DNA from: Malacoraja senta
Lineage: Eukaryota
DNA: 64,000 nt
NCBI GenBank assembly: GCA_038087875.1
Contig: CM075984.1
Location: 9,672,001 to 9,736,000, forward strand
Direction of reading: 5' to 3'
The notes beneath the pieces were generated by a model, which was given only the letters and a program-made list of their open reading frames with translations, had not been told where the DNA came from and made no database searches. This document shows, piece after piece, positions 16,895 through 55,149 of this stretch; the stretch's first letter is position 1, and every line of letters starts with the position of its first letter. A program made the position numbers and the translations under genes.

Positions 16895-18667
16895 GTTATT
16901 GTCATGTGTCCCTGATAGGACAATGAAATTCTTGCTTTGCTTCAGCACAAAAGAACATAGAAGGCATTGACTACAAAACAGATCAGTGTGTCCATATACC
17001 ATTATATAAATATATACACACATGAATAAATAAACTGATGAAGTGCAAATAACACATAATGGGCTATTAATGTTCAGAGTTTTGTCCGAGCCAAGTTTAA
17101 TAGCCTGATGGCTGTGGGGAAGTAGCTATTCCTGAACCTGGTCGTAGCAGTCTTCAGGCTCCTGTACCTTCTACCTGAAGGTAGCAGGGAGATGAGTGTG
17201 TGGCCAGGATGGTGTGGGTCCTTGATGATGCTGCCAGCCTTTTTGAGGCAGCGACTGATAGATCCCCTCGATGGAAGGAAGGTCAGAGCCGATGATGGAC
17301 TGGGCAGTGTTTACTACTTTTTGTAGTCTTTTCCTCTCCAGGGCGCTCAAGTTGCCGAACTAAGCCACGATGCAACCGGTCAGCATGCTCTCTACTGTGC
17401 ACTCGTAGAAGTTAGAGAGAGTCCTCCTTGACAAACCGACTCTCCGTAATCTTCTCAGGAAGTAGAGGCGCTGATGTGCTTTCTTAATAATGGCATCAGT
17501 GTTCCCGGACCAGGAAAGATCTTCAGAGATGTGCACGCCCAGGAATTTGAAGCTCTTGACATTTTCAACCATCGACCCGTTGATATAAATGGGACAGTGG
17601 GTCCCCATCCTACTCCTTCCAAAGTCCACAATCAGTTCCTTGGTTTTGCTGGTGTTGAGGGCCAGGTTATTGTGCTGGCACCATATGGACAGTTGCTCGA
17701 TCTCTCTTCTATACTCAGACTCATCCCCATCAGTGATACGTCCCACAACAGTGGTGTCATCAGCGAACTTGATGGAGTTCGCACTATGACCGGCTACGCA
17801 GTCATGAGTATAGAGTGAGTACAGCATGGGGCTGAGCACGCAGCCTTGAGGTGCTCCCGTGCTGATTGTTATCGAGTCTGACACATTTCCACCAATCCGA
17901 ACAGACTGTGGTCTGTGAATGAGGAAGTCGAAGATCCAATTGCAGAGGGATGTGCAGAGACCCAGTTCTGCGAGTTTGGTAACCAGCTTGGAGGGGATGA
18001 TTGTATTAAATGCTGAGCTGTAATCAATGAATAACAGCCTGACATATGAGTTTTTGTTGTCCAAGTGGTCCAGGGTGGAGTGGAGGGCCAGCGAGATCGC
18101 ATCCACCGTTGATCTGTTGTGGCGGTAAGCGAACTGCAGTGGGTCCAGGTTTTTGTCGAGGTAGGAGTTGATTTGCGCCATGATCAACCTCTCAAAGTAC
18201 TTCATCACCACAGGCGTTAGTGCCACAGGTCGATAGTCATTGAGGCACGTCACCTTACTCTTCTTGGGCACTGGTATAATTGATGCCCTTTTGAAGCAGG
18301 TGGGAACCTCAGACCTCAGAAGTGAGAGGTTGAAAATGTCCGTAAAAACTCCAGCCAGTTGGTTTTTAGAACACGACCAGGTATACCATCAGGTCCAGGC
18401 ACTTTTCGAGGGTTCACCCCTCTGAAGGATTTCCTGACGTCGGCCTCTGAGACTGAGACTGAAATACCATCACAGCGAATGGGGGCTCGGGAAGGCACAT
18501 CGGTGTTCTCCCTATCAAAGCGTGCGTAAAACGCATTGAGCTCATCAGGAAGTGATGTTTCGCCGACATTCGAGCTGCCTCCTGATTTCGCCTTGTAGGA
18601 GGTGATTATATTCAGGCCCCGCCACAGCTGCTGAACATCTGTCTCTTCCTCCAGTTTGGAGCAGACG
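16895..18667 (-). mobile_element. Rex1/Babar-type LINE, 5'-truncated RT
   Basis: ORF 17360-18271 [43 protein letters not shown]; upstream frameshifted segment [11 protein letters not shown]. Confidence 0.92.
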
Positions 18668-21423: not shown

Positions 21424-21839
21424 TAAGTAACAAATTCCAAATTAATTAAGCATAAGTACTGATACATTGGACTGGACCGAGCTCTAATGTGGGCTGCATT
21501 TCAGTGAGAATCCATTGATGCCTGTCCTCTGATATAAATAATATTCAGTTTAATGTCTGGACAGTCTTACAAAAAGTATTTTTACTGAAATCTTTATGGA
21601 TTGCTTAATGTTACTAAACTAAATGCAGCAAAGAATGCAGAAAGAAAGAACATATGGTTATATTCCATCGTGCTGATGGATTACAGCAGTTTTGGAATGT
21701 ATTAGCTAGAGAATTGTGCAAATATTTCTACCGCTATCTATTTGAACCATAACATACCAGTGTAATTATGATTATATTTTTGCCAGTTACCAATTGGACC
21801 AAAGCAGAATTTCAACCTCAAACATACCTATTATCCTTA

Positions 21840-22169
21840 TTAACTTTGATTGCACATGCCCAAGTGACAGGCTTCACAGAAGTCACTTTCATGAGGTGTA
21901 GTCTTCCGATGCATCCGAACTCTTCCTTCTTCGACCAGATTGGGAACACGATAGCAGTTTTGAGGATTTTTAAAATAAGTCTGTCAAGCACTTGGTCCAT
22001 TTGTTCGGAATTAACCTGTGGTTTGTGCAGAGTGGGGTTATTGCATTCTCTGCATTGCTGCCGGAGGAGGCGAAGCAAAACTAATCCACTTTTCTTTCTC
22101 AGGCGGTAATGAAACACCATACTGGCACGGGCTGAAGACCACGAATTTGAACAGCGAGGACAGGTAAAT
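21840..22169 (-). CDS. RTP-family (receptor-transporting protein, zf-3CxxC) last coding exon, with a 1-nt frame break
   Basis: cttccaacag|A TTT ACC TGT: FTCPRCSNSWSSARASMVFHYRL..LLRQQCREC..LILKILK. After a -1 shift at about 21958-21973 it continues NCYRVPNLVEEGRVRMHRKTTPHESDFCEACHLGMCNQS*, with TAA at 21840-42. PH..FCEAC..G.C is the RTP signature. Confidence 0.88.
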
Positions 22170-23244
22170 CTGTTGGAAGTAAGGGCAGGGTAGTTAGTGT
22201 TGATGAAGAACATGTCATTTCATGCTTGAAATTTCCTCTCTCTGCTTCTGAGTGCATTTAGAACAGCTTTGTAAGGGCTCACATCAGTGCCACGTACACC
22301 ACAGCAGCAAGATGAAATCTGATGCCAGAAATTTGAAATCAAAGCAGAACATGTCAGAAACACTCGGCAGATCAGGCAGCATCTGTGAAGAGAAAAGCTG
22401 TTTTCAAACTGATAACATTTCATCAGTGATGCGTATTTCCAGCATTTTCTGCATATGCATGAATTTACACATGAACATGTGTAACCGATAAACATATACA
22501 TAACCGTAACTCATAAACATGTGAAAAAGGTAAGTGGATATGCCAGGCAATAATATTAATCATAGACCAACAACACAGTACTAGTTCTGCTATAACTGTA
22601 CCAGAAGCTGCTTATTCTTTAGAAGTCTCTGCTTGGTTCTGGAACCCACACCTGAGGGAGGATATATGGAGGTTAGTGGAAGTGCACATTGAGCAGCTTG
22701 AGTGGCTTTTTTTTACACTTCATCTGTTCGATAACGAGCCTTTTCTCACAGGATAGAATGATAAACTGAATGTGCAAGCACATGAATTTCAAGGGAATCA
22801 AACACAACATGAATGACCCTGACATGTCATGGAAATGAAAGACTATCACGTCCCAAAACAAAACTTAAACAGAAAGCTAAAGGATGTCATCAGAAAGAAG
22901 GGACATTCATTTAAAGGCTACCAACACAATTAGAGCTGGCACTGATCTTAAGGTGGCAAACAGCTGAGAGGAAGATACACTGATTGTCCTTGACAAGAAC
23001 TGGCCCCCAAGGGTGTCACGGTGGCGCAATGGTAGAGTTGCTGGCTTATAGCGCTGGAGACCCGGGTTCGATTCCGACTATGGGTGTTGTCTATATGGAG
23101 TTTGTACGTTCTCCCCATGACCGCGCGGCGTTTCTCTGAGATCTTTGCTTTCCTCCCACACTCCAAAGGCATACAGGTACATAGGTTAATTGTCCCTAGT
23201 GTGTTTACCTGTTTCCACACTGTATCAAACTATGACTCTATAAG

Positions 23245-24725
23245 ATATAGGAGCCGATTTAAGCCGTTCGAGTCATCATGTCTGCAATGCCATGCAATCA
23301 TGGCTGATCTATTTTTCCCTCGTCCCCTTTTTTCCCCATTCCCTTGCTCCCATTCGTCCCAATCTTTGATACCTTATTAATCATGAAGCTATCAACCTCC
23401 GCTTTAAAATACCCAATGTCAGCCTCCACAGCCACCTGTGGCAATTAATTCCACAGATTCACCACCCTCTGGGTGAAGAAATTCCTCATCTCCATTCTAA
23501 AGGTACATTCTTTTATTCTGGGGCTGTGTCCCCAGACTCTCCCACTACTGGAAACATCCTCTCCACATCCACTTTGTCTAGGCCTTACATTATTCAGTAG
23601 GTTTCAATGAGATCCCCACTCTCCCTCTCATCCTTCTGAACTCCAGTGTGTACAGACTAGAGCCATCAAATGCTCCTCACACGATAACCCAATAATTCCT
23701 AGAATCATTTTCACAAACCTCCTCTGGACCTTTTCTAATGCCAGCATATCCTTCCTCAGAAGTGGGGCTCATAACTGTTCACAATATTATAAAGCCTCAG
23801 CAGCACATCTTTGTTTTTATATTCTTGTCCTAATGAAAGGAATGCTAACATTGCTTTTGACTGATTTGACCTGGAAATTGCCCTTTTGAGATTCCTGATG
23901 CAGTACTCCCAGGTCCCTTTGCACCTTTGATTTCTGAATCCTTTTCCCATTTAGAAAGTAGTCTATGCGTTATTCCTACTATTATATTATTGGCCAGCTT
24001 AGCTTTATATTTCATCTTTTTTTTAACCTTGTTCTTTTTTTAGTTGCCTTCTCTTAGTTTTTAAAAGCTATCTAATCCTCTAGCTTCCTGGTCATCTTTA
24101 CCATGTTATATGCCTTCTTTTTTACTTGTATACTATCTTTCCTTTGTCAGCCAAGGTCTCCTCATTCTGCCCTTAGTATGTTTCTTTCTCTTAAGGATGA
24201 AAAGATCTGCGTCTTCCAAATGACTCCCAGAAACTCCTGCCATTGTTACTCACCCGTCTTTGCTGCTCGGGTCGCCTTCCAATCAACTTTAGACAACTCC
24301 TCCTTCATGCATCTGTAGTTACATTTACTCAATAGTAATACCGATACATCTGATTTCATTTCTCCTTCTCAAATGGCAGGTTAATTTTGATCATATATGA
24401 TCATAGCCTCTTCTGGATTCCTTGCCTTTAAACTCCCTAGTCAAATCTGATTAATTACACAACACAGAATTGCCTTTTCCCTAGTGGGCTCGACCATGAG
24501 TTTCTCTAAAAAAAAGGCATCTCGTAGGCATTCTGAAAATTCCTTCTCTTTGGGATCCAGTGCAGGTAGATTTTTCCAGTCTACCTGCATATTGAAAACC
24601 CCCATGACCACTGTAACATTGCCTTTCTTACATGCCTTTTCTATCTCCTGATGTAATTTGGACCCAATATCCTGGCTAGTATTCAGAGGCTCGAATATAA
24701 CTCCCATCATGGTCTTTTGGTCCTT
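23245..24725 (-). mobile_element. Degenerate CR1 LINE (endonuclease remnant to 3' end, internally deleted)
   Basis: ORF 24441-24767 VVMGVFN..DW..EFSECLRDAF..EPTREKAIL; RT-tail motifs nearer 23.3-23.9 kb. Confidence 0.75.
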
Positions 24726-24877
24726 TTTACCACATATATATATTGGTAAATATATGGTATTGGTCACCTATCCATGTTCTCCAGAGATACTGTCTGACCT
24801 GCTGAGTCACTCCAGCACTTCGTAACCTTCTTTGAACTTCCTTTCTGAAAATGACGTGATACAAGATCAATAGTGTT

Positions 24878-25550
24878 AGACAATAGGTGCAGGAGTAGGC
24901 CATTCGGCCCTTCAAGCCAGCACCGCCATTCAATGTGATCATGACTGATCATCCACAATCAGTACCCCGTTCCTACCTTCTCCCCATATCCCCTGACTCT
25001 GCTATCTTTAAGAGCTCTATCTAACTCTCTCTTGAAAGCATCCAGAGAACCTGCCTCCACTGCCTTCTGAGGCTTAGACTTCCACATTCTCACAACTCTC
25101 TGTGTGGAAAAAGTTTTTCCTCGTCTCCGTTTTAAAATGGCTTACCCCTTATTCTCAAACTGTGGCCCCTTGTTCTGGACTCCCCAACATTGGGAACATG
25201 TTTCCTGCCTCTAGCGTGTCCAAACCCTTAATAATCTTATATGTTTCAATAAGATTCCCTCCCATCCTTCCAAATTCCAGAGTATACAAGCCCAGCCGCT
25301 CCATTCTATCAACATATGACAGTCCGTCATCCCCGGGAATTAACCTGCTGAACCAACGCTGCACTCCCTCAATAGCAAAAATGTCTTCCTCAAATTTGGA
25401 GACCAAAACTGCACACAATACTCCCGGTGTGGTCTCGCTAGGGCCCTGTACAACAGCAGAAGGACCTTTTTGCTCCTATACTCAACTCCCCTTGTTATGA
25501 ATGCCAACATGCCATTCGCTTTCTTCACTGCTGCTGTACCTGCATGCTTT
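24878..25550 (-). mobile_element. Young CR1 LINE 3' fragment
   Basis: ORFs 25340-25528 (KKANGMLAFI..RPHREYCVQFW) and 25155-25418. Confidence 0.9.
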
Positions 25551-26046
25551 GCTTTATATCTGAGATTGGTAGAGTTTTGTTAATCAAAGATACTGGGGAA
25601 AATAAGGTAAAAATGGATACATTAAATTAGCTCATGGATCAGCTAAATCTCCATGAATGGTGGAACGTCTTAAGTAACTGGCTGGCTTACTCCTACTAGA
25701 TTCCTATGCACTGTAGAAACATCAAAGGATTAATGCAAAGAAACAAGTCTATGCTTGGCAGGTATATGAATATTCCATAATTATTTTGAAGGACATTCAC
25801 ATCTGATATTTTATTATTCGGACAATGTTGAGGGGATTATGTGTATGAATTCATAAAAGTAACCATAATTCTGTAATGCACTCCTATTATGAACTTTTTC
25901 TATCAGGGAGAATATTTTGTTTCATTGCCATTTGCTTTCCAACTAAAAATGGATTGAGCAAGGCACCAAGTTTGTGCAAAACATTATTTTTCATAAAATA
26001 ACCCATGTCATTTGTACATTTGGCTCCAAAATATGTAATACCTTAC

Positions 26047-26219
26047 TTGGCAAATGATGATGTTAAATAAATCTTCCAACCTTCTGCTCTTCTCTGAGCA
26101 TCCAGTTCCTTTTGGAGGTTGTAATTGAAATTCAGTGTCCACCGTTCTTCAAGACCCTCTTCTTCTATACAGCTGGTGAAGTGAGTGAACCAAGGGTTTG
26201 TTCCAGGAACTTCTGCCAT
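26047..26219 (-). CDS. RTP-family gene, first coding exon
   Basis: ACAATGG start at 26219; MAEVPGTNPWFTHFTSCIEEEGLEERWTLNFNYNLQKELDAQRRAEGWKIYLTSSFA + AA|gtaagg. The phase-2 junction (AA+A = Lys) fits the next exon. Acceptor tttag|G at 26248/26247. Confidence 0.88.
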
Positions 26220-26699
26220 TGTGTACTGTCTTGAAATATGTAAAGACCTAAAGATGTTAGATCAGAGGGAAAGGGTATCAGTTCCCCAGACGTGTAGGAA
26301 AGAACTGCAGATGCTGGTTTAAATTAAAGGTAGACACAAAATGCTGGAGTAACTCAGCGTGTCAGGCAGCGTCTCTGGGGAGAAGGAATGGGTGACGTTT
26401 TGGGTCGAGACCCTTCTTCAGTCTGACTATCCCTTCGTCCATGAACCTCAAACACACCGTGGCTATCATCATCCCACCCTCACCCTACCTTCCCTGAACA
26501 TTATTAGGAGGTGATAGCAACCCACAGAAAAAAATCCCTCTGGTCCTCATGCATGTTGGTTGTTCCTAAGACTTGGATCAACTCAAAAGTGTCTCTCACT
26601 GAATTCAAGAGGAATGTGCACGTCATCATATGACAAATCTGTCTTTGAAATTAAGGCATGTTCAACTGAGCCTAGAGTGTAGAAAGCTCTGACTCATGA

Positions 26700-27620
26700 C
26701 ATGACAGCAGCCGTCCGTCAAATTCACTTTTTCTTTAGTTTTAGCTTTTTTTATTTCTCTGTTTTTTTGGGGAATTTTTACTTTTAATGTGGGGGGGTAA
26801 GGGGAAACTATTTCTAGGTCCCTACCTGGTCGGTGAGGCAGCTTTTTCTCCGGGCTGCCTCATCGACCCGTCCTCGTGGCCTACCAGCGGGCATGGAGCG
26901 CCGTTTCCTGACGGGGACCGCCCAGCACCTTCAGCTTCGGTCGGCGGCACAGCGCTGGAGTGCTATCGTGGAGCGTAGCGGCGATGCCTTGCCTGGGTCG
27001 CCGCGCTGGGTCGACGCGGTGGAGCTCCGGTATGCGGTGACCGCCGAGATCAACACCTCCAGGCTGCGGGTCTGCGGAGCGACCAGCCGCGGGCGGCGGC
27101 GCCGACTTTAACATCGGGAGCCTCGTGGCTCCAACTCGGCGCGGCCCTGTCGGCTTCAGGTGCCATCGACTCCGCTGGGAAACCGGCCGTTCCTGCCGCT
27201 GCGAGGACTCTCCCGACGGCCAGGAACATCGGGCCTCCGTAGAGGCAACTGTGGCGGCCTCGATGGGCCTGACTCTGGGGAGAACTGGGTTGGGGACTGG
27301 TCATTGTGCCTTCCCCCACAGTGGTAACCATTGTGGGGGGATGATTTTGTGTGCTGTGCCTGTTAGTCTGTGTGCAAGATGGCGGTCGGAGGGGAGAGTG
27401 GACGCTGGCGTGGTTTGGCTGCCGCTGCTCTCCTCAAATTGTGTTTCTTATTTTCTTTTTGTGCTTTTGTAATTGAATTCTGTCCTTGATTTGTGTACTG
27501 TGGTGTTTTTATATTTAATTTATTCCGATTATGTGATTTGTATTTTTGTGATTCTATGCCTTGTAAGGTGTCCTTGGGTTTTAGAAAGACGCCAGCAAAT
27601 AAAATGAATTATTACTATTA
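26700..27620 (+). mobile_element. GC-rich dispersed repeat, close relative of 61850-62570(-)
   Basis: Long near-identical blocks (ggtccctacctggtcgg...gggcctccgtagaggcaactgtgg...ggggactgg) shared with the reverse-strand copy; AATAAA and (ATT)n tail. Confidence 0.7.
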
Positions 27621-28014
27621 TTATTATTGTTTTTCATGAATGATCAACTTACTCATCTTATTGCCAAAGATCCTGCAGGAGTAACAGAATGAGTGACTGT
27701 TTTGATGGGCTTTCCCAAAAGATGCTGCTGGATTCCTTGGAAGCAGCAAAAAAAACTCCCAAAATCTAATGGGCAAATAAAAAATGAAACATTCTTTCAA
27801 ATTAATTACATAGCACAATCAACTTCATCTCTACCATTGGCTTTTATTTCAACACTATGATGGCATATCCATTTTAATATGAACACAATTTGAATATCGT
27901 ATTTGTAAGATTCCAAACTCATGCTAGATCTAAAGCATCCTGTCCGAAGATTTATCTGATCTCTTTTTAAGTCCTGACTGCTCAAGTTAGGAAGCCCAGC
28001 TCCAAGCTGAACCA

Positions 28015-29833
28015 GACAGGATATTGCACACATACATGATGGATGTGCTCACCAAAGTGGATTTTGGGGAGGGAATCAGGAATTGGATCCAACTGCTCTA
28101 CACCGATATCTGTTGTGCAGTCCAAATCAATGGGTGGGAATCAGACAGCTTCCCGTCGGGTCTGGAGTCAGGCAGGGTTGTCCTCTCTCACCTGTATTGT
28201 TTGTCTGTTGCATAGAACCTTTTGCCGAGTCCATCAGGAAGGACGTGAGCATAAGAGGAGTGACATTGCCAGGCAGTGGGGGCACTCAGGTCAAAACTTC
28301 CCTGTACATGGACGATGTCGCTGTCTTCTGCTCGGATCCCGGGTCGATCCGCAGATTGATTAGCATCTGCAACCAGTTTGAGTCGGCCACGGGGGCCAGG
28401 GTGAACCGCAGGAAGAGCGAGGCCATGCTCTTTGGCAACTGGCCCGACCGATCTTCCGTCCAATTCACCAGCCTGACTTCTTGAAGGTGCTGGGGATCTG
28501 GTTTGGGGGGGGGGGGGGGGGGGCTAGGGCGTGTGACAAGAATTGGCTGGAGTGGATAGCCAAGGTGGGGAAGAAACGAGCTGTGGAAGCAGCGCTCCCT
28601 CTCTATAACGGGGAAAAATCTGGTCATCAGGTGTGAGGAGCTCTTGGGGATGCTGTACTTGCACATGTGGCCTGTCCCTCCCTCCTACGCCACAGGGATC
28701 ACCCGGGCCGTCTTCCAGTTCATCTGGGGGTCGAGGATGGAATCGGTGCGACGTGCCACAATGCACAAGTCGGCAGACAACGGGGGTAAAAACGTGCCCA
28801 ACGTCGCCCTCACCCTGATGGCCACCTTCGTGTGTGGCTGCATCAGGCGGAGCGTAGAGCCAAGGCACATGGGCCCCGTGTCACTACCTGCTGAGGTTCT
28901 ACCTGTTCCCGGTGTGCGAAGGATGGGCCTGGCGCAGATGCCATGCAATGTGCCAGTCAGCTGCACCATCAGTTGTTCGTAGAATGGTTCTTCTGGATCA
29001 ATACCTTTGACCATGTCCATTGGGCAGTGGTCAGCACGGAACGTCCTGCAGGCACTGCAGGGAAATGACTCCATAAATCCAGTGGCATGGTTCCAAGAGC
29101 AGACTGCCCAGCTAGTCTGGCGCAATGCCTCAGAACTCACCAACAAACACCAAGACCTGGTTTGACTGGCGGTGAGGGGAGCCCTCCGTCAGATTCTTCC
29201 TGCACTGTCGGAACCTCACCACCAGCACACGCTGCCCTCAGCCGACTGCTATGGAGAGCAGACGGTTGCCCACCTCTTTGCAGAGTGGATTTTCAAAAAG
29301 AGTGGAGAGGTTTACAAGGGTCCCTGTCACGATTTATTTTGAACAGCTCCATAACAGAGTACTGTGATTTACCGACTGTTCCCAGGGACTCATTCAGAGA
29401 CGGACATCGAGTGCTGCTGCAAGGTCATCAACTTGGTGAAAGACGCTCTGGTCTGCCCGAGCTTTGTTGACTTCCCAGCAGAGCGAGATGTCTGTCGGGG
29501 AATGTTGCCGACTGGCCGCTGCAGACTGCAGGAGTACGTGCTGAGGGACGAACTGAAGCTTGGTGCAGCCAACGCCAAGGCTCTGTGGGGGAAGACCACA
29601 GTCTAGGGTCTTTGCACTGCTGGTCATTGGGGCAGGGTGTGGTGGAGATGCCCCTCAAAATTCACACCAGGGGGCCACATGAGTGGCAAGAGTGTGGGAT
29701 AAAGTTGTGTGATTTGTGTAAACAGTATTGAATGTTTGTATAGCCTCCAAGCATGTCGGATACATTTTTTGCGTGGTTCCTATATTGTACTTATTTTTTA
29801 CTTGAATAAAGTTTATTTTGATTTTTAGAAAAA
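28015..29833 (+). mobile_element. Tx1-type (L1 clade) LINE, 5'-truncated and frameshifted
   Basis: SGVRQGCPLSPVLF..IEP, LYMDD, FIWG..RATM, C-terminal CCHC-like ETVAHLF; AATAAA and an A-rich end. Confidence 0.88.
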
Positions 29834-30426
29834 GCGTGATAAATGCCCCATCCATCCAAGTTGTGAACTTCCTCTTTGAAGTACTATTTGCAATCTTCAA
29901 CCAACATTTGACTACATAAACTCTGGAAAAAATTAACTTTAACAGTAAGAATACAATTCAAGTTATGAAAGAATTACATGGTTTCTATATTCAATTGATC
30001 TATTGCTCGAAATAGATTTATCAATTATGAAATTTGGTTTGGTGGTGTATAAATAGCAATTGAACTTTTCGGTTTCAATTTTGTTTCAGTTCAAGCTGTG
30101 TTCTTTGGTTTTTAGTGGCATTTAGAAAATTCAGACACTTCCTATTATTTCAAAAAGCTTAATTCGAGATACACATTTTGGTCACAACAAAGCACAATGA
30201 AATCAAAAGCCAAATTAATAACAATTACTGGCTAACTTGAGTTTTACCTGAATTATTTCCTTGATTAACCTTTTTTCGTGCAATCATAAACTCCCTTTTG
30301 TTTTTTGCCCATCTCTGTTCCTGCTTTTACACGACTGGAATTTTTCACCACTGTCTCAACACCAATCCTGACATTCTCACCATGAGATCAGTCTACATTC
30401 TTCATGAGGATATTAATAGATACATG

Positions 30427-30815
30427 GACAATAGACAATAGACAATAGGTGCAGGAGTAGGCCATTCGGCCCTTCGAGCCAGCACCGCCATTCAATGTGA
30501 TCATGGCTGATCATCCCCAATCAGTACACCGTTCTCACCTTCTCCCCGTATCCCCTGACTCCGCTATCTTTAGGAGCCCTATCTAGCTCTCTCTTGAAAG
30601 TATCCAGAGAACAGGCCTCTACCGCCCTCCGAGGTAGAGAATTCCACAGACTCACAACTCTCTGTGAGAAAAAGTGTTTACTCGTCTCCGTTCTAAATGG
30701 CTTACCCCTTATTCTTAAACTGTGGCCCCTGCTTCTGGACTCCCCCAACATCGGGAACATGTTTTCTGCCTCTAGTATTTCCAAACCCTTAACAATCTTA
30801 TATGTTTCAATAATG
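30427..30815 (-). mobile_element. Young CR1 3' fragment
   Basis: ORF 30521-30784 SRGHSLRI..FFSQRVVSLWNSLP; (GACAATA)n tail. Confidence 0.9.
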
Positions 30816-31917
30816 TATTCTTAAGCAAATTGAATGATAACTTTTATTTCCATATGTTAATATTTCTCTCATCTTTACGACTGAAAACAAACAAAATAAG
30901 ATTTTCCAGGTTTGCCTTCCAAGGTGTTTCATCGGTTAAATCAATAGGATCAAGAAGGATCCTGACCCAAGACGTCGCCAAACCATGTTCTCTGCATATG
31001 CTGCCTGACACGCTGAGTTACTCCACAACTTTGTATCTTCTTTTGAAAACTAGCATCTGTAGTTCGTTTGTGTCTTATTTAAAATAGCTGGTCATGCTGA
31101 AAGCCAAGTGGATAGGCAGTTAAAATAGCCAATGCTACTAATCACCAGGCGAGGGCGTGGGTCGCACATGCTGCTTTCAAATGGAATTGGCACATTTGGA
31201 TTTTAAAAAATAAGTTCACTGTACATTTTATTACAGCAATGAAAGGGTTGGCTGGATCCCAAAGTGATGCTTCACTTTCTTTTGAAGGTAGACCTTGCAG
31301 AGAAGGGCTTAAAACCAGAACGGGAGCAGGGTTTCGGGTATTCAAGCATGGCTCCTCCTGGCTTAGCTGTTTCTCAGTTTCATTATCTTATCTATCCTTT
31401 AATACATTTATCCAGTCTGTCAGCCTCAGCTTTTGGATATTTCAGCAGCACAACATTAGTTCTGGATAAGGAGTTATTGCCACTTCAGTCCGCCATTTGT
31501 GGTAATATTGCTTCAAGATATTTCTAAAAAAGTAACCCTTTGCTGGCATTGGCAAATGTCAGTTTATAAGCCCTGGAATTTGAGAGAGTTGCCATCTAGT
31601 CCAATGCCACCTCTCTCCTAGTTGGCAGTCGTGATAGGATTCATAGCCAAGACTCCTCTTTTGGATCATTGGTTTCACCCTTATTTTGTGAACAAAATGG
31701 CTGCAGCATGTAGCATTCATGGGTTACTGGGTGTCCTGCAAAAATGTTGCTAAGTAGGTGAGAAACACGTTTGAATGATTGCAAAGCTGATCAATGCAGA
31801 ATTTGTAGTTTATGAGGGCGCGCTTACCGACAGATCCTAGATCTGATACAACAGCGTGCGTGCGTGTTGCATGTGCAGTTGACGCCGCGCACGAATGATT
31901 CACCGCTATATTTTGCC

Positions 31918-34290
31918 CGTCTCTGTAACCCCCCTCCCATCCAGTCCCCCTCCCCTCCCCCTCAATGTTCCGTCCCTCTCAATGTCCCTCCCCCTCAATG
32001 TCCCCTCCCCTCCATGTCCCCTCTCCCTCAATGTTCACTCCCCATCTCCCTCAATGTCCAGTCCCGTCAACTCCCCGCCCCCCTCTCACCCTGTCCCCTC
32101 CCATACCCTCCTCCTCTCCCTTAATATCCTCCCTCCTTCACTCTCCTCCCCCACCGCACCCTCACGGTGTTGTCCCATCTCCCTCTCTCCTCCCCTCCCC
32201 TCCCCATCGCCTCTCCCTCCCCCTCTCCCTCTCCCTTCTCACCCATCTCCCTCCCCCTCCATGTCCCCTCTCCCCACCCCTCGCATTCCCTCCCGTCCCA
32301 TCGAATCAGTCCTGGGATACAGAGTCACACAGCGTGGAAAGAGGCCCTTCGAACCAATGTTCCCACAACGACCAATGTCTCCTCCCCTCCTCTCAACATC
32401 CCCTCACCTTCAATTTCCTCTCCCCCTCAATGTCTGCTCCCCTCCCCTTCCCCTCAATGTCCCCTCCCCTCAATGTCCCTTCCCCTCCCCTCCCCATCAG
32501 CGTCCCCTTCCCCTCAATGTCCCCTCTTCCTCATTGACCCCTCTCCCTCCCCCTCAATGTCCCCTCCTCTCCCCCTCAATCGGGTCCCACATAAGAGATT
32601 AGCATATAAACTTAAAGCAAATGGTATTGCGGGTTCAGTATTGATGTGGATAGAGACTGGCTGGCAGACAGGAAGCAAAGAGTAGGAGTAAATGGGTCCT
32701 TTTTCCAGAATGGCAGGCAGTGACTAGTGGGTACCGCAAGGCTCAGTGCTGGGACCCCAGCTATTTACAATATATATTAATGAGCTGGATGAGGAATTGA
32801 ATGCAACATCTCCAAGTTTGCAGATGACACAAAGCTGGGGGCAGTGTTAGCTGTGAGGAGAATGCTAGGAGGCTGCAAGGTGGCTTGGATAGGTTGGGTG
32901 AGTGGGCAAAGGCATGGCAGATGCAGTATAATGTGGATAAATGTGAGGTTATCCACTTTGGTGGCAAAAACAGGAAAGTAGACTATTATCTGAATGGTGG
33001 CCGATTAGGAAAAGGGGAGATGCAATGAGACCTGGGTGTCATGGTACACCAGTCATTGAAAGTAGGAATGCAGGTGCAGCAGGCAGTGAAGAAAGCCAAT
33101 GGTATGTTAGCATTCATAGCAAAAGGATTTGAGTATAAGAGCAGGGAGGTTCTACTGCAGTTGTACAGGGTCTTGGTGAGACCACACCTGGATATGCATA
33201 CAGTTTTGATTTCCTAATCTGAGGAAAGACATTCTTGCCATAGAGGAGTACAGAGAAGGTTCACCAGACTGATTCCTGGGATGGAAGGACTTTCATATGA
33301 AGAAAGACTGGATAGACTCGGCTTGTACACGTTGGAATTCAGAAGACTGAGGGGGGATCTTATAGAAATTCTTAAGGGTTGGACAGGCTAGATGCAGGAA
33401 GATTATTCCCGATGTTGGGGAAGTCCAGAACTAGGGTCACAGTTTAAGGATAAGAGGGAAGACTTTTAGGACCGAGATGAGGAAATCATTTTTTTTACAC
33501 AGAGAGTGGTGAATCTGTGGAATTCTCTGCCACAGAAGGTAGTTGAGGCCAGTTCATTGGCTATATTTAAGAGGGAGTTAGATGTGGCCCTTGTGGCTAA
33601 AGGGATCAGGGGGTATGGAGAGAAGGCAGGGATGGGATACTGAGTTGGATGATCAGCCATGATCATATCAAATGGCGGTGCAGGCTCGAAGGGCCGAATG
33701 GCCTACTCCTGCACCTATTTTCTATGTTTCTATGTTTCAATGTCCCATCCCCCTCAATGTTCCCTCTCCCTCAATGTCCCCTCCCCCTCCCCCTCAATGT
33801 GCCCTCTCCCTCAATGTCCCCTCCCCTCAATGTCCCTCCCCCTCAATGTCACTCCCCCTACCCTCCCGACCCCCTCTCTCCCATCTCTGTAACCCCCTCC
33901 CCCTCCCGTCCCCTCTCCCTCAATGTCCCGTTATCTCTCCCTCCCATACCGTCCCCTCCCGTTCCCTCCTCCTCTCCTCAATATACCCCCCTCCTCCACT
34001 CTCCTCTCTACCTACGCACTGCGCCCCTCACAGCCCCATCCCATCTCCCTCCCCTCGCGTCCCCTCCACTGTCCTTCCCTCCCCTCTCCCTTAATATCCT
34101 CCACTCTCCTCCCCACCATGCCCCTCAGGGTGCTGTCCCATCATCCCCTCCCCTTTCCATCCCCCTCCCATCCCTCTTTCTCCCCTCCCCCTCCCCATCC
34201 CCACTCCCTCCCCCTCTCCTTCCTCACCCCTCTCCCCCACCCTTAGCATTCCCTCCCGTCTCATCAACTCAGTCCTGGGATACAGTCACA
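31918..34290. repeat. C-rich (CCCTCAATGT-based) low-complexity tandem region, duplicated and split by a CR1
   Basis: 31918-32340 and 33882-34290 are similar blocks, both ending in tcagtcctgggatacag. Confidence 0.8.
32582..33737 (+). mobile_element. CR1 LINE RT 3' fragment
   Basis: PQGSVLGP..FADDT..RPHL motifs with frameshifts; (TTCTATGT)n tail. Confidence 0.9.
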
Positions 34291-34712
34291 CCGGCCCAAC
34301 GTTCCCACACCTGCCCCGTCTACACTAGTCCTTATTGTCCCTTACATGCCACGTCCTACACTCACCTTTTGTCCCTTATTTGGGAGTGAGGAAGTTGGAA
34401 ACCCTCTATGTTGGCGATATTGTCTTGTGCATTAATAATGTTAGAAAAATGCCAGCTCATTAAATTGAATTGCACCCGGGAAGTCTTCAATTCAATTTCC
34501 CAAATTGTCAGGTCTTTATGTTGAAATGCATTTTTAATGTGATTTTCAATTAATGTATATTGACTCATTTTCAAGGCCTTTATGTTTTCTAAGCAGCCAA
34601 ATTACATTCCTGCAGAAAGATTTCTCATAAAACAGAGTAGGTAATGTCTGTAAAAGTCACACATTGGCAAAAGAACTATAATTGAAAATTACAGAAGATA
34701 AAATGTCCTTAC

Positions 34713-34850
34713 CTTTCACTTTGCCGATTCTTCCAACACAATGAAATAATTATATCTGTAAGCAAATTTCCTTGGCTCTGTAACAAATTGGATTGTTTTG
34801 TTCTGGAGAGGAGTTGCTCTCTTTACAAAATATATTCAGAAAGCTGGATG
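34713..34850 (-). other. Probable non-coding first exon of the RTP gene
   Basis: Strong donor AAG|gtaagg at 34713/34712, about 155 bp downstream of the ISRE. The 5' boundary is a guess. Confidence 0.45.
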
Positions 34851-34868
34851 GTGATCAGTTCTAGACTA

Positions 34869-35080
34869 AGTTTCACTTTCCTATGTCATTTCCAAGAAAT
34901 CACATGACAGTAAAATTTGAGCAATATTTAAATTTGATTGGACTTTATATAGCATTCGTAAAAAGGCTAACTTTATTAAAATTGGGCATTATAAACTAAT
35001 CTTCCCAGCCATAAATTAAAGATGTAATTTTGCACACTGCTTGTTTTTACTTTATCTTAACATTGGTGGAAAATGAAACT
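34869..35080. promoter_or_regulatory. Interferon-response module: ISRE + GAS + second ISRE
   Basis: AGTTTCACTTTCC (34869-81), TTCCAAGAA (34890-98) and GGAAAATGAAACT (35068-80), all consensus matches in unique AT-rich DNA. Confidence 0.7.
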
Positions 35081-36091
35081 GGGTGTTAAATAAATAGATT
35101 AGTTGGAGTTGCCATTAATATCGCATATTCCATCTGTGTACTCTGTAGCATTTGGTTACAAATTCTAGAGCATAACTTCTAAAACAGGGTATATATAGTT
35201 GATAATCAACTTTTCCTGGAGCAATACTATTGTTCTATTTTCATGTGTCTGTTAGGCAATACACAAAATGATGGAGTAACTCAGCGGACAGGCAGCATCT
35301 CGGGAGAGAAGGAATGGGTGATGTTTCGGATCGAGTCATTCTTTAGATTGTCTCTCAGGCATTTGACTCTTGGATTTTCAGCGAGCTTATTTACTGGAAA
35401 AATATGTGCCAAATGATATTAACAGTGTTCAACACAACAATTGTCTGCAGTGAGAATTTTAAATTCTTATTTATCTACTGGACAACCCTCCATGCTTTGC
35501 CCTCAGTGTGATATATGATCTTCTCTGATGTTAAGTAATGCCTCACATGTCTGTCTAGATAGCATTATCTGTGAGAGCCAAAGGCACACTCAGCTTCCCG
35601 GCCCCAGTATTACTCCTGGTTGCGTGCCTAGGGGAGGTACTGCTGCTTAAATATCTTATACTGCTGCATAAGTGAGTCCAAACAACTTCCCGGTCAAGAA
35701 CGAAAAACATGTACGATTCCTTTAGCCACAAGATCAGTCAGAGCAGGTAAGGTGCTTGCCTTACCCATAGTGTGGGCTTTCTAGATTGTGTTGGGTTTCT
35801 CCTGAAGCAACATCCTGTCCAAAACTCTGTCTGATTTCTACCTCGCACAAGAGACATATCTCTTCCCAGTTATTGTACTGTGCTAGCTTGTGTCATACTG
35901 TGCATGAGATTCGGGAATAATATTCCAACCTTCTTTCTCATCATTGTAATATCCATTCACTGAGAAACAATTCTCCTTTGATTCCAGCTCATCACTGCTT
36001 GTTATTGTAGTATTCCTTTATGTTAGCTGTACAGATTGTATGTGCTGGACAAAATGGACAAAATGGACAAAATGTCTATAATGCTAGATAT

Positions 36092-39000
36092 TGTAGCGCC
36101 ACCCGGTGGTGGCTCTGGGGATTCGAACCCTCATGATTGGCTGGAGGAGTCTCATGAGCGCGGGTGTTCTATTGGCAGTGTTTTTATGCTGTAACTATCA
36201 GTAACTGTCAGTCTAGCGCCCATACTTGTGGAAGCAACATTATTTTTGGCTGTCTTATCGACGGATGACACATTGTTTGTGTTCTAAAATAAAGAACTTT
36301 TCGTACACCCTAGGGTCTCGACTCGCCAAAGTGGTGACTCCGCTAGTCCGGACGGATTTAGGACTTTCAACATGCTAGCCGCCGCCATCCCGATTCCCTG
36401 AAAAACGCTGTGGGACTGAAGCTGCCCGTGTTCTGGGCAGAGCAGCCTCAAGTGTGGTTTGCCCACAAAGAGGCCCAGTTTCATCTCTGCAATGTTGTGG
36501 TCGATGACACCCAGTACTTTTACTTCGTCGGGGCGCTCAACCAAGAGACGGCCTCACGGTTGCTGCCCTACTTACAGGACCCCACCGGCGTTTGGCAAGT
36601 ACAACGGCCTCAAGGCCCTACTGTTCTGCACCTTCGGGCTCAGCCCCCGGGAGCGCACCGCCCACCTCCTCCACATGGACGGCCTCGGCGACCGCAAACC
36701 GACCGCCTTAATGAGCGAGATGTTCACCTTGATGGACGGCCATCGACCATGCCTGCTCTTCGAATGGACATCGGATGACATCCACTTGCTGCTCGTCGGC
36801 TCCGACTTTGCCGACAAATTGTGGCTCGCGAAGCGGCAGGACGGCGGGTCATCAGCCGGGTGTCCGCGCCTGCCCGCCAACCGCCCCGCAGAGATGTCCA
36901 GCCCGCCGCAACCGTCGCCGAGCCACAGCCACACGCCAGGGACCGGGATAAACTCCAGTAGTGCCTTTATCACCTCCGCCGAGGCACTGAGGCCCACCGA
37001 TGCCGGCACCCCTGCACGTTCGGGAAATGCCTCGACCGATCGGTAGTGGGGGCTATCACGATTGGCCACAACAACTGCCACTCTGGATTGCATTTCCTGG
37101 TGGACCCGGGGCCATCGTGAACATCCTCCCCCTGACTGGGCTGGACACCCGTGCCGGTAAGCGGGGCCCTGTCCTCAAGGCTGTCAACCGCTGTACTATC
37201 CGCACCTACGGGACGCGGACCCAATCCGCGTTTTTCGAGTCTTTCGACTCCCGCCCGTACGTTTGGACATTATCGTCGCAGCGGTGGCCCAGCCGCTCCT
37301 GGGCACTGACTTCCTTCGGGCCTTTTTCCCTCATGGTGGACGTATGGGGCGGGCGCCTCATTCCACCAGGCGTTCCAGCGCCTAATGGACATAGTCGGTG
37401 GGGGATTGAACTTTCTCTACATTTACCTCGATGACATCCTGGTCTTGAGCCGCTCCCAACAGGAGCACCTCACACACCTGCGGACGCCATTCCAGCGGCT
37501 CCGCGACCATGGACTTATCGTCAATCCCGCGAAGTGCCAGTTTGGACTCTGCACGATTTCGTTCCTGGGCCACAACGTCACCTCGCAGGGCGCCATCCCA
37601 TTGCCGTCTAAGGTGGAGGCCATCCGGCAGTTCCCCAGGCCGCTAACTGTGAAAGGCCTACAGGAGTTTGTCGGTATGGTAAACATCTACCACCGTTTCG
37701 TGCCGGCGGCGGCCAGAATCATGCGCCCCCTTTTCCAGTGCCACGCCGGTAAGCCACGGGAACTCGTGTGGTCCACTGAGGCGGAGGCCGCATTCGAAGG
37801 TGCAAAAACTGCGCTAGCTGGAGCCACCATGCTGGTGCACCCGCGGGCCGCTGCCCTGACGGCTCTCACTGTGGATGCCTCTGATACGGCCGTAGGCGGG
37901 GTCTTGGAACAGCTCATTGACGGACGCTGGCAGCCGCTAGCCTTTTTCAACCGTCAACTGAGGCCCCCCGAGCGCAACTATAGTGCATTTGACCGAGAGC
38001 TCCTCGCCCTCTACCTGGCCATCCGGCAATTTCGCTACTTCCTGGGGGCCAGGCCGTATCCGCCTTCACCGACTGCAAGCCCTTGACGTTTGCCTTGGGG
38101 TAAGGTGTCTGACCCATGGTCCGCCCGGCAGCAACGACACCTGGCATTTGTCTCGGAATTTACGACGGACGTTCGGCATGTGGCCGGGAAGTCCAACACA
38201 GTCGCCGGCGCCCTGTCCCGCCCGGCCCTCCCAGCTGTGGCGGCTGTGGACCACGGCGTCAATTACGTGGAGTTGGCTGCAGCACAGCGCGCAACTGACG
38301 GGATGGCGGACTACAGAACAGCCGTTTCTGGGCTGCGGTTGGTCAACGTTCCACTTGGTCTCACGGGAGCGTTGGTGCCGTGCGACGTCTCCACCGGGCG
38401 ACCTCGTCCCATGGTTCCCATCACCTGGGGCAGCTGGATTTTCGACACCATCCATGGCCTGGCCCACACTTCAATCCGGGCGACTTCCGCGCTGGTGGCG
38501 GACAATTTCGTTTGGCACGGTCTCCGCAAACAGGTCACGGTTTGGGCTAGGGCCTGCGTCCCGTGCCAGACATCCAAGGTGCAGCGCCTTGTGCGGGCCC
38601 CGGTGCAAGACTTTGTGGTTCCCTCGGGCCGCTTCCATCACATTCACGTGGATTTAGTGGGCCCGTTGCCGCCGTCTGCATCTACTCACGGTGGTGGATC
38701 AATTCACGAGCTGGCCCGAGGCTATCCCTCTGTCAGACACCTCTGCCGAGTCTTGTTCCCAGGCCCTCGCGGCGAATTGGATTGCTCTGTTTGAGGGTCC
38801 GGCAGACATTACAACCGACCCGGCTCAATTCACGTCCTCGTTGCGGGCTTCGCTGGTGAAGTTGTACGGGGCACAGTTGCACCACACCATCCCCTATCAC
38901 CCCCAGGCAAACGGCCTCGTGGAGCGGTTCCACCGCCACTTGAAAGCGGCCCTGATGGGACGGGTCCAGACTGGGTCGACCAGTTGCCTTGGGTCCACTT

Positions 39001-40511: not shown

Positions 40512-43500
40512 TGTCACATCTTCGCCTAAGATGTGGAATAATAATACTGATACAATATTTACAGGTTACATTCCTTTGCCTCCATGTTTATTATCTCCGC
40601 CGGGCCATGGCCTCCTGCCTTGGCTTACACAGCTCACACCCGATCTGACCACCGAGGCAGCTGATACAAATGTCAAGATATTTGCATATCATTATCATGA
40701 CTCATCATCGTGACATCCCTCCTTTACCAGAATTAAACTTTAAATTAATATGTGTTCTTTCTAATATACTTTCCAATTAAATTCTTACAAAGCATATTTG
40801 TGTTTTCATTTGTGTTCCAATAACTCACGAAACAGATGCATTACAAAACAAATGCAATGCAACTGTCTTTTTTTTCCAAACCCTTTCATCCTATTTCTTT
40901 AAATGCAACAATGCAACTTTTTACACTCTTGTAACCTTAATAAACTCCTTGATCATAATAAACAGTGTCATAATAAACAGTGTGCTATTGACACAGCTGC
41001 ACAATTAAACAATTCTTTACCCTTAAAAATTATTATGTTGGCTTTATTAGCCAAATACACCATGGCACTAACTAAAAACCTGTACAAGTACAAACAAATT
41101 ATTTGTTTTCCCTTAGTACAAATAATAACCTGTAGGCTTCCTTTGCCTCTAAACAAATGTCATATTCATCTGTATAATTACTAAGCAAAACTATAGCCTA
41201 TAACACAAAATTGTTGTATCGCTTGGGGACTCTCCTTTCACGTTTTGGTCTACCAGCTGGCGCAGGAGCATCAGAGCCTGTTGAATCTGCCAAGGTTTTG
41301 TCACCCAGACGCCTTCTCTGCTCACCACCTGCATTACAGCGTGCTGCCACTGGAACTCTGGTCACCACCTCGGAAATGCTGGTTGTCTCAGGAACAGCGG
41401 TCACCACCTCAGGGATGTCGTCTGGCCCCTCTGAATCGGTAGCTCTTGGTGGATTTTGAGCCACCTCGTTTTGAGTGTCTCTGGACATGTACTTTTTGAC
41501 GCTCGATACATTTCTCTTGTAGATAACACCTTCTGGAGACTTGACTGTCACCATGCAGCCGCTCCCCGATACAACATTGTCTGGCTGGTAATAGTAAGCA
41601 GTGTCTATCTTACCGCCATCATCTTGCCTCACAAGCACGTCATCACCAGGCATTATTTCAGGGTGCCTAGCTCCTCGTTTCAAGTCAGCATACCATTTTG
41701 CAACACCTTTCTTTTCGGCATCACAGTCTCAGCTCCTGGTCTTCCGTGATATCTCGCACTTCTGGTATTTTAGTGCGAATTTTCCTTCCAAACAAGGCTT
41801 CTGCTGGGCTTTTCCCTTTCGTTGAGTGAGTGATCGCCCGATATACAGCTACGTATACTCACAGTGCCTCCTTCCAGTTTTTCCCTTCGGCATGATCGAT
41901 TCGTATCCTCTTCTCTATGGACTGGTTTTGCCTCTCTACTTCTCCATTAGCTTGTGGCCATTTCGGAGTCACCTTGTGATGATGGATGCCTGTGATTCTC
42001 ATGTATTCACCAAATGTCTCGGAAACAAACTGTGGCCCATTGTCAGAATACAATGTAACAGGCAACCCGTGTCTGGCGAAGATCTCTGCTAATGTCTGTA
42101 CAGTTTTTTCTGCTGTAGACTTCATCACTGCATACTCGTAGTACCTGTTATAGTAGTCTACCACTACCATAATTGATTCACCTGTTGGAAGTGGTCCAAG
42201 AAAGTTAACAGCTACGTCAACCCATGGTCCTGTTGGTAACTTTGTACTTCTAATTGGTTCTGGTGGGTTGCTCCTGCTTGTGATTTGGCATCCGTGACAT
42301 GTCTTGACCTCCTGTCATGTTCTTCACGAATTAATGCATGGACGATGATGTCATCTGATATGTTTGCTGCTCCTGGTACACCTTGAATCACTCTGTGGAT
42401 TTCGTACTGATAGATCTTGGGGGCAGCATTGATTCCGAACATCAGTCTTTTGTACAGGTATAATCCACAGTGAGTGATGAATGTTGTCACCTCTCTTGAC
42501 TCTGGATGTAATTCCAACTTATGATATCCCCACTTGAGATCAATTTTGGAAACATCTTTACTGGTTGATAACTCATGTAGCACCTCATCGACCGTAGAAA
42601 TTGGGTGTCTTTCTCTGATTATTGCCTCAATGGTTCTCCTCATGTCTACGCACAGTCTGATGTCATCATTGGGTTTCGGCACAATCATTACTGGACTCAC
42701 CCATGGTGTCGAATGTTCAACTGGTTCAATAATGTCCTGATCAATCAACTCCTTGATTTTAACTGCGACTTTTCCACGAAGTCCAAATGGCGTTCTCCGC
42801 ACCGGTTGAGCTATCGGCTTGACATTTTAATCAATGGCTAACTTCACTTGCCAGCCTTTCAATTTTCCAACCCCTTGGAATACTGAGTGAAATTCCTGCC
42901 TCATGTCATCATATGACTGCACTGAATTGACATGCACTCCGATGTGAAGCATTCCCAGCTCTCGAGCTGTACTTCTATTCAGCAGAGGTTCTCCCTTCTC
43001 CACTATCACCATGAATTCTGCTTCAGTTTCTCTATCTCCCACTTCTACTTTAGCCGTGAAGCATCCAATGGTCTGCAATGGTTTAGTTGCAGTGCATGGA
43101 TATAACTTCCTACTACACCTCCTTGACGTGCACTTGATTTTCTGCTGTTTCAAGCATTCCCAAAGTGATCTGTCAATTACGTTGCTGTCACTACCAGAAT
43201 CTACAATCACTGGCACCGTAACACTTCCGATGGTCACTGCAACTTTTTCGTGATGGCTCTCATTCAATGCAAACTGATAATTCCTTTGAACAGCATGCTC
43301 ACCAGCTTCATCACTGTCTTCATCACTTCCGAAATCACCTTCTACGTGACGGACATGACCCTTCTTTTTCTGCCAAGGTCTGTCTTTCTTTTCACTGGAC
43401 TTCCCTTTCTTGTTGTAATCACTTGTCTTGTCCATGGCCTTACTTTTACATTTCTTTGGAAAATGATCTTTGTCTGCACATTTCCTACATGTTCTTCCTT

Positions 43501-44481
43501 TTGCTGGACAACATGCATCTTTCCCTATGTGACCCTTGTTGCCACACCTGTAACACTCGATCTCACGTTCAGGCATACTTCTTGGTCTAACGTTGGACAG
43601 CTGGTTAACTTGCCCAGTCTTGGAATCTTTCAATTTCATGCTGCGAAATTGTCCCTCAACAGCTTCCAGTGCCGCCGCAATCGACAAAGCATCATTAAGG
43701 TTTAACTCACCCCCTTTTTCTAGCAGCCTTCTCCTGAGATGTCTGACCTGCAATGCTGGACAACCTGATCCAATATCTGCTTTTCCACATCAGCAGCCAC
43801 ATACTTGCATCCTACAGACACCTGTCTCAACTGTCTCACAAATTGAGCAACAGTCTCGTCCTCTTCCTGCATTGTTTTGCGGAATAAATGGTGTTGAAAT
43901 GTAGCGTTCGGCACCACCACATAATGACTGTTCAAAGCATCAATTGCTTTATTCCTCCTTCATTCCGGTGTCAGGTTTTAAACATTTCTCGAACCGCTGG
44001 CCCCGCGAACAAGAGAAGCAACGCTCTCCGCTGCGCCTTCTAACCTGGCGTACTCTCCTCAAGAAAGAGCCCACGACTGATGGTGTAGGCCTCGAATTCC
44101 TCCAGCCAAGCGTTCCACTTCACACTGACGGTACTCGCATCACCCGTCGGATCGAAGTGTGGAACTCCACGAAGTGCTAAGAAATCAGCTCCAGCGACTG
44201 CCATTATGAAACCTTTTCCTTATCTTTTTCCAGCTCGTAGCCACGGATTCAGAATCCAAAATATCCTCGTCGCCAATGTCACATCTTCGCCTAAGATGTG
44301 GAATAATAATACTGACACAATATTTACAGGCTACATTCCTTTGTCTCCATGTTTATTATCTCCCCCCGGGCCATGGCCTCCCGCCTTGGCTTACACAGCG
44401 CACATCCGATCTGACCTCCAAGTCAGCTGATACAAAGGTCAAGATATTTGCATCTCATTATCATGACTCATCGTCATGACA
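40512..44481 (-). mobile_element. Gypsy LTR retrotransposon (Mag/SURL-like), both LTRs present, pol internally deleted
   Basis: LTRs 40512-40715 and 44277-44481 (TGTCA..TGACA); 5-bp TSD TGTGC; PBS TGGCGACGAGGAT (tRNA-Ser); PPT AAAGGAGGGA. Gag with two CCHC-like knuckles, protease VDSGS, RT ISDDII, integrase SDNGPQF..PQANGEVER. Confidence 0.95.
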
Positions 44482-55060: not shown

Positions 55061-55149
55061 GCTTCACATTAAAGGTGTAGCCATGAGCACTTGCATGGGA
55101 CTCAGCAATGCTTGCCTTTCTGTTGGTTGCTTCAAACACTCCTTGTTCT

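What the first reader, a model, noticed from the sequence alone, without database searches (positions are those of the whole stretch)
21840..35080. Hidden anchor-less RTP/3CxxC gene under an ISRE-GAS-ISRE promoter: candidate elasmobranch antiviral ISG
Seen: two phase-compatible coding exons that give, after repairing one base, a 167-aa protein with CPRC, CREC and PH..FCEAC..G.C. It stops four residues after the last Cys, so it has no C-terminal TM helix. An acceptor precedes the ATG, and a strong donor at 34713 lies next to consensus ISRE/GAS sites. Known: mammalian RTP1-4 have C-terminal TMs, and RTP4 is an interferon-induced RNA-binding antiviral effector whose zinc-finger domain matters for activity. 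Inference: a soluble, zinc-finger-only ancestral-type RTP effector.
Basis: partly seen in the sequence, partly recalled or inferred. Interest (0 to 1): 0.7.

Follow-up and report, generated by a model that had tools for sequence, protein, structure and literature searches.

The report
Skate RTP zinc-finger gene beside PD-1
This is an intact skate gene for a soluble RTP zinc-finger protein, of a kind already annotated in sharks and rays and already known to lack a membrane anchor in fish; it is likely switched on by interferon and may act against viral RNA, but neither step has been tested.

Summary
The gene is real; the novelty is small. Three exons on the minus strand encode a 167-aa 3CxxC (PF13695) RTP protein. 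The one-base break is an assembly error: contigs of 3 of 4 runs carry the extra T, and the fourth is clipped there. Orthologues of 163-175 aa without a TM helix are annotated in 17 elasmobranch species, plus one 293-aa model. The thorny skate orthologue (81% identical) is in a 2021 paper stating that fish RTPs lack a TM (PMC8172065). The ISRE pair is real and rare; the GAS is weak, and the proximal ISRE probably lies in the transcribed leader. Additions here: a relative's RNA shows an exon-2-skipping junction; the gene lies about 70 kb from PD-1; trees split jawed-vertebrate RTPs into two old clades. The skate gene sits in the TM-less clade A, while the frog RTPs shown to be antiviral, and by inference RTP4, sit in clade B. 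It is therefore likely an RTP4 paralogue, and antiviral activity is untested. Interest low.

The parts
35069..35080 (+). distal ISRE-like site GAAAATGAAACT
   Evidence: single-copy DNA
34946..34951 (-). TATA-like box (inferred)
   Evidence: consensus match only
34890..34898 (.). GAS consensus TTCN3GAA (weak: 88 in 264 kb)
34869..34882 (-). strict ISRE AGGAAAGTGAAACT, probably at or just inside the transcript 5' end
   Evidence: an RNA contig of a relative covers 34713-34884; thorny skate model has a 207-nt leader
34713..34890 (-). non-coding exon 1 (5' end approximate), donor AAG|GTAAG; AAAGTGAAA IRF-like site at its 3' end
26047..26247 (-). exon 2 (201 nt), ATG at 26219, residues 1-58; skipped in one isoform of a relative
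21840..22169 (-). coding part of exon 3 with all three CxxC motifs; stop TAA 21842-21840
21958..21961 (.). homopolymer one base short in the assembly (error, not a pseudogene lesion)
   Evidence: 20 gaps against 5 substitutions in the 8 listed X1 contigs, 5904 bases
21549..21839 (-). 3' UTR, colinear with exon 3, ATTAAA at 21554
   Evidence: RNA contig 21588-22169

Best explanation
An intact, single-copy, spliced skate gene encodes a 167-aa RTP zinc-finger protein without a membrane anchor, which is likely induced by interferon through its ISRE pair and would act in the cytosol as an RNA-binding antiviral effector. Shown: gene structure, open frame, no TM, ISRE cluster, splicing in a relative, membership of TM-less clade A. 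Inferred: IRF/ISGF3 binding at the ISREs raises transcription (about 0.8). Inferred: the Cys/His sites bind zinc and the basic domain (net +6) binds viral RNA in replication complexes, as shown for RTP4 and Xenopus RTPgammaS (about 0.55). Inferred: the exon-2-skipped mRNA lacks the start codon and the first CxxC and is probably unproductive.
For: Frame intact in reads. All three CxxC motifs present; C61, C64, C97, C100, C130, H151, C156 and C159 invariant in 72 aligned homologues. The model of the little skate orthologue has pLDDT 90.8 and one compact domain. The ISRE pair is unique in 264 kb. PMC8172065: several fish RTPs are IFN-induced, 10 of 11 Xenopus RTPs are poly(I:C)-induced, RTPgammaS binds viral RNA and needs its zinc finger. 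Xenopus deltaS, which by eye carries the clade-A N-terminus, is among the induced ones. The TM is dispensable for human RTP4 activity (PMC10470548). RTP3 is repeatedly among the most virus-induced genes in sole and sea bass (PMC8875540; clade of those genes not determined).
Against: No induction or antiviral data exist here for this gene, and three literature searches listed none for an elasmobranch RTP. The frog RTPs shown to be antiviral (gammaS, gammaL, alphaL1) look like clade B by eye. The clade-A-like frog protein deltaS was undetectable on westerns and not scored antiviral, and it is mainly intestinal. Clade-A-like salmon RTP 3 shows dN/dS 0.255 without consistent positive selection. 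RTP1 and RTP2 share the domain and are receptor chaperones. The fold match to the ZAR1 RNA-binding domain is weak (Z 5.1, rmsd 3.8, 89 aligned).
Confidence: 0.6

Rival explanations
1. An interferon-induced gene whose product modulates signalling or host RNA rather than binding viral RNA directly.
For: Same promoter evidence. Bat RTP3 was judged to act indirectly, and RTPgammaS also binds host RNA. Clade-A-like salmon RTP 3 lacks an arms-race signature. An RTP4-TBK1 inhibitory role is recalled, not read here.
Against: The domain is the one that carries direct antiviral activity in RTP4 and frog RTPs.
Confidence: 0.25
2. A soluble GPCR-trafficking chaperone like RTP1/2, with ISRE-like sites that are incidental.
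For: PMC8172065 notes the TM is dispensable for receptor trafficking. Frog deltaS is tissue-restricted.
Against: The ISRE pair arose in 0 of 5000 shuffles and is the only pair in 264 kb; fish and frog RTPs are widely virus- or poly(I:C)-induced.
Confidence: 0.1
3. A pseudogene or null allele with a true frameshift.
For: The assembly reads out of frame after residue 127. X1 may not be the assembled individual.
Against: X1 carries the extra base at full depth, as do two relatives. The assembly is indel-rich here: 20 gaps against 5 substitutions. The rest of the frame is intact, with 148 of 167 residues identical to little skate.
Confidence: 0.03

Closest known systems
Elasmobranch 'receptor-transporting protein 3-like' (little skate XP_055501533.1; thorny skate XP_032887963.1 / XM_033032072.1)
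   Same: 148 of 167 and 136 of 167 residues identical; same length, no TM, same short tail. The thorny skate PD-1 accession (XP_032887962) is consecutive with its RTP, in line with the same neighbourhood. The thorny skate gene is in the 303-RTP set of PMC8172065.
   Different: Only species-level divergence; this assembly has a one-base error.
TM-less clade-A RTPs of bony vertebrates (coelacanth XP_006003147.1, teleost and frog RTP3-like; by eye Xenopus RTPdeltaS and salmon RTP 3)
   Same: One clade, support 100/98; T[KSRT]PH motif in 19 of 19 rows against 0 of 31 clade-B rows; no TM.
   Different: 38-46% identity in the three rows measured; promoters not compared.
Mammalian RTP4 and the antiviral Xenopus RTPgammaS/alphaL1
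   Same: PF13695 zinc-finger domain, which carries activity; TM dispensable in RTP4; IFN/poly(I:C) induction predicted here.
   Different: RTP4 has a disordered region and a TM. These proteins belong to clade B (frog by eye, RTP4 by inference), so they are likely paralogues, not orthologues.
ZAR1 RNA-binding domain (PDB 9jko)
   Same: 3CxxC family (PMC12431671); structural match Z 5.1, 19% identity.
   Different: Z below the tool's trust level; ZAR1 is an oocyte mRNA regulator (recalled).

Membership tests
RTP / zf-3CxxC (PF13695) | 3CxxC domain over the Pfam cut-off | tested here: met
   50.7 bits against cut-off 23 on the first frame alone; second frame covers the rest of the profile
RTP / zf-3CxxC (PF13695) | three CxxC motifs plus PH and final Cys | tested here: met
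   C61-64, C97-100, P150-H151, C156-159, C164
RTP / zf-3CxxC (PF13695) | nests among vertebrate RTPs in a rooted tree | tested here: met
   elasmobranch clade 100/99 within clade A 100/98
fish-type TM-less RTP | no C-terminal TM and no downstream TM exon | tested here: met
   max KD19 0.47; RNA contig runs colinear 250 nt past the stop; 18 of 18 elasmobranch species' models under 1.6
RTP4 orthologue | disordered region plus C-terminal TM | tested here: not met
   3-residue tail
RTP4 orthologue | same clade as amniote RTPs | tested here: not met
   named amniote rows fall in clade B; AU rejects one bony-vertebrate clade, p 0.011; no row was identified by name as mammalian RTP4
interferon-stimulated gene | ISRE near the transcript start | tested here: met
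   transcript 5' region
interferon-stimulated gene | induction by IFN or poly(I:C) | not testable with these tools
   only assembled contigs were served
antiviral RNA-binding RTP | binds viral RNA and restricts replication | not testable with these tools
   needs CLIP and infection assays
ZAR1-like fold | structural match | tested here: inconclusive
   Z 5.1, tied with unrelated zincin rows; no Foldseek hit at E <= 0.001

The most novel reading that the evidence does not exclude
Jawed vertebrates had two RTP genes before sharks and bony fish split. Clade B gave mammalian RTP1-4 and every RTP so far shown to be antiviral. Clade A, anchor-less and apparently lost in amniotes, is the only RTP this skate has and is a separate, untested interferon effector beside PD-1, tuned by skipping of its start-codon exon. 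This revises the published view that RTP copies come mostly from recent duplications.
Probability: 0.4. Interest if true: 0.42.

Novelty: new member of a known kind. Interest (0 to 1): 0.2.

Why it matters
As first framed it matters little: the orthologue is annotated and published, and TM-less fish RTPs are known. It gives a clean candidate marker for interferon responses in skates and rays, where ISG data are thin. If the two-clade reading holds, function cannot be carried over from RTP4 to fish 'RTP3-like' genes by name, and one whole old branch of the family has no shown antiviral activity; a single-copy skate gene is a simple place to test it.

Tried and rejected
Pseudogene: rejected. Downstream TM exon: rejected by the colinear 3' UTR contig and by orthologues. 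Further RTP copies in G000: PF13695, a clade-A protein and the clade-B Callorhinchus protein each found only this locus at meaningful E (5-7 candidates scored each, so not proof of absence). A search with the Callorhinchus protein returned only itself among 8 candidates, uninformative. Repeat-derived promoter: no second copy of 34700-35150 found. No RNA holder of the window's own organism was listed as RNA; X24 showed no piece on the exons in the listed rows; neither is evidence. PDB sequence search: 0 hits. Foldseek: no hit at E <= 0.001. Sialidase and Gal-3-O-sulfotransferase searches gave no close neighbour. Atlas naming of one clade-B row gave only 'RTP3', so mammalian RTP5 could not be placed; a search for RTP5/CXXC11/PDCD1/RTP3/paralog listed 0 papers. 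Earlier scan findings: none. No other host gene was found in the window: 104 ORFs of 105 aa or more gave only retroelement domains; short exons would be missed.

Full report
Verdict. It is the skate member of the RTP (zf-3CxxC) family, already annotated across sharks and rays. What remains open is function, and which branch of the family it represents.

Gene structure. On the minus strand, exon 2 (26247-26047, ATG 26219) joins exon 3 (acceptor 22169) in phase 2. PF13695 matches profile positions 6-72 in one frame of exon 3 and 69-100 in another. The shift lies in a four-T run at 21958-21961. Of 4 runs laid on 21450-22240, three carry one more T behind 21957: X1 (99+% alike, depth 20.4 of 20.4), X19 and X2; X22 is clipped at 21958. 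The 8 listed X1 contigs over the gene show 20 gaps and 5 substitutions in 5904 bases, the pattern of an indel-prone assembly. With that base the product is 167 aa, ends NQS after the last Cys, has net charge +6 and no hydrophobic helix. Searches of G000 found no second RTP (few candidates scored).

Splicing. X19, a run of a related organism guessed to be RNA, has contigs that stop at the predicted borders: 34713-34884, 26047-26245 with overhangs of 32 and 30 letters, and 21588-22169. The two exon-2 junctions are inferred from these ends and overhang lengths, not read letter by letter. One junction was read: a 60-letter contig joins exon 3 to letters identical to 34715-34742, so exon 1 also splices straight to exon 3. 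Its depth is 4 against 6.2 for the exon-2 contig, a rough figure from one low-depth run. That isoform has no in-frame ATG in exon 1 and would start at Met75, without the first CxxC; mutating that finger destabilises human RTP4 (PMC10470548, passages), so it is probably unproductive. The exon-3 contig runs 250 nt past the stop, so no TM exon follows.

Promoter. In transcription order: ISRE-like 35080-35069, TATA-like 34951, GAS 34898-34890, strict ISRE 34882-34869. In 264 kb of window plus flanks the strict pattern occurs 3 times and the looser one 9 times; this is the only pair within 250 bp. In 5000 dinucleotide shuffles of 34701-35200, 4 gave a strict site and 0 gave two looser sites (region chosen after the fact). 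GAS matches number 88, and 3 of the 9 looser sites have one within 50 bp, so the GAS is weak. The stretch is single-copy. The relative's contig covers the proximal ISRE, and the thorny skate model has a 207-nt leader, which would map to about 34891 if colinear. The proximal ISRE is thus probably at or just inside the 5' end; contigs cannot show a start.

Known relatives. Named RTP-like proteins from 18 elasmobranch species were returned: 17 of 163-175 aa and one 293-aa model with a non-TM extension. Of the 85 proteins then held, 84 have no window at KD 1.6 or more; the exception is N-terminal. The window protein shares 148 of 167 residues with little skate and 136 of 167 with thorny skate. PMC8172065 (Results, Discussion, supplement files 4 and 6 in part; figures not visible) says that all amniote RTPs have a TM, fish RTPs lack one and amphibians vary, and lists the thorny skate gene. 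The central 'anchor-less' point is therefore in print.

Neighbourhood. A MUL1-like GIDE plus RING exon lies about 26 kb downstream and an Ig V exon about 70 kb upstream, both on the same strand (143 of 547 non-repeat flank ORFs scanned). By eye the V exon is near-identical to thorny skate PD-1 in supplement 1 of PMC12151841 (passages). PMC11599192 (section 21) already names rtp as a pdcd1-linked marker in Chondrichthyes and tetrapods. An SS1-type somatostatin exon is on the same contig, 9.6 Mb away. That human RTP5 adjoins PDCD1 is recalled, not checked.

Phylogeny. A profile search gave 484 representatives at E <= 0.001, of which 150 were listed. A quick tree of 187 near-full domains from the 228 proteins held and a careful tree of 56 chosen rows rooted on amphioxus, hagfish and four unnamed rows show two clades. 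Clade A (100/98) holds elasmobranchs, one coelacanth RTP, teleosts and amphibians, none with a TM tail. Clade B (93/92, unstarred) holds Callorhinchus, the other coelacanth RTP (with TM), other teleosts, other amphibians and the named amniotes; 59 of its 94 rows have a TM-like tail. On 29 of the 56 rows, AU tests reject one clade for chondrichthyans (p 0.025), bony vertebrates (0.011), the two coelacanth genes (0.005) and teleosts (0.002). The groups were named after seeing the tree, the domain is short, and Callorhinchus and hagfish are long branches. Motifs agree: T[KSRT]PH in 19 of 19 A rows and 0 of 31 B rows. No named amniote fell in A, but most B rows are unnamed and none was identified as RTP4. 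By eye, Xenopus deltaS and salmon 3 in the supplement have A-type N-termini, and frog alpha, beta, gamma, epsilon and bat RTP1 B-type. PMC8172065 instead describes one anamniote cluster and mostly recent duplications. My searches listed no paper on this split; subscription journals and bioRxiv supplements were not visible.

Mechanism. The model of the little skate orthologue is one compact alpha/beta domain (pLDDT 90.8). Its match to the human ZAR1 RNA-binding domain is weak (Z 5.1, rmsd 3.8, 89 aligned) and tied with unrelated rows. Direct antiviral action through this domain is shown for human, mouse and bat RTP4 and for frog RTPs (PMC10470548, PMC12431671 passages; PMC8172065). Teleost RTP3 is strongly virus-induced (PMC8875540 passages), clade unknown. 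For clade A the evidence is thinner: deltaS is poly(I:C)-induced but was not detected as protein and not antiviral in the screen, and salmon 3 is mainly under purifying selection. I put interferon induction at about 0.8 and direct RNA-binding restriction at about 0.55, both inferred.

Score. New member of a known kind; interest 0.2. The two-clade reading with an untested, amniote-lost branch is the only part that could surprise a specialist.

Noticed in passing
L019:175-606 minus (G000:C8:9776175-9776606): Ig V-set exon near-identical by eye to thorny skate PD-1; same strand as the RTP gene, about 70 kb upstream.
   Followed up: partly
L005:4960-5754 minus (G000:C8:9666960-9667754): MUL1-like exon (GIDE plus RING), about 26 kb downstream; the only GIDE match in G000 at first look. 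Its upstream exons may lie in the window and were not mapped.
   Followed up: partly
window 34713>22169: Exon-2-skipping junction in run X19; the isoform lacks the start codon and first CxxC. A whale shark RefSeq isoform (P0021) also lacks the first Cys motif.
   Followed up: partly
P0002-P0020: The first 'CxxC' is CxC in 13 of 18 elasmobranch species.
   Followed up: no
P0086, P0087: Bombina bombina models with 3-4 tandem RTP domains; may be merged gene models.
   Followed up: no
P0018: Heptranchias RTP model has a 127-aa Cys-rich non-TM tail that resembles a GIY-YIG retroelement piece (recalled resemblance).
   Followed up: no
P0173: A bdelloid rotifer 3CxxC protein of 161 aa with RTP-like architecture, on a long branch.
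   Followed up: no
window 36362-38999 plus and 41862-43789 minus; 1-906, 17363-18388, 28011-28481, 54220-55172: Fragmented LTR-type elements upstream of the promoter and LINE reverse-transcriptase pieces, one inside intron 1. Flanks hold a LINE with a 1269-aa open frame (L006:2-3808) and DIRS-like elements (L006, L008).
   Followed up: no
window 22006: C>T in X1 against the assembly changes Glu to Lys in exon 3; allele or error.
   Followed up: no
model of P0007 against PDB 9kbo: Weak structural row for human Shiftless, another interferon-induced zinc protein (Z 3.7, 63 aligned); below trust level.
   Followed up: no
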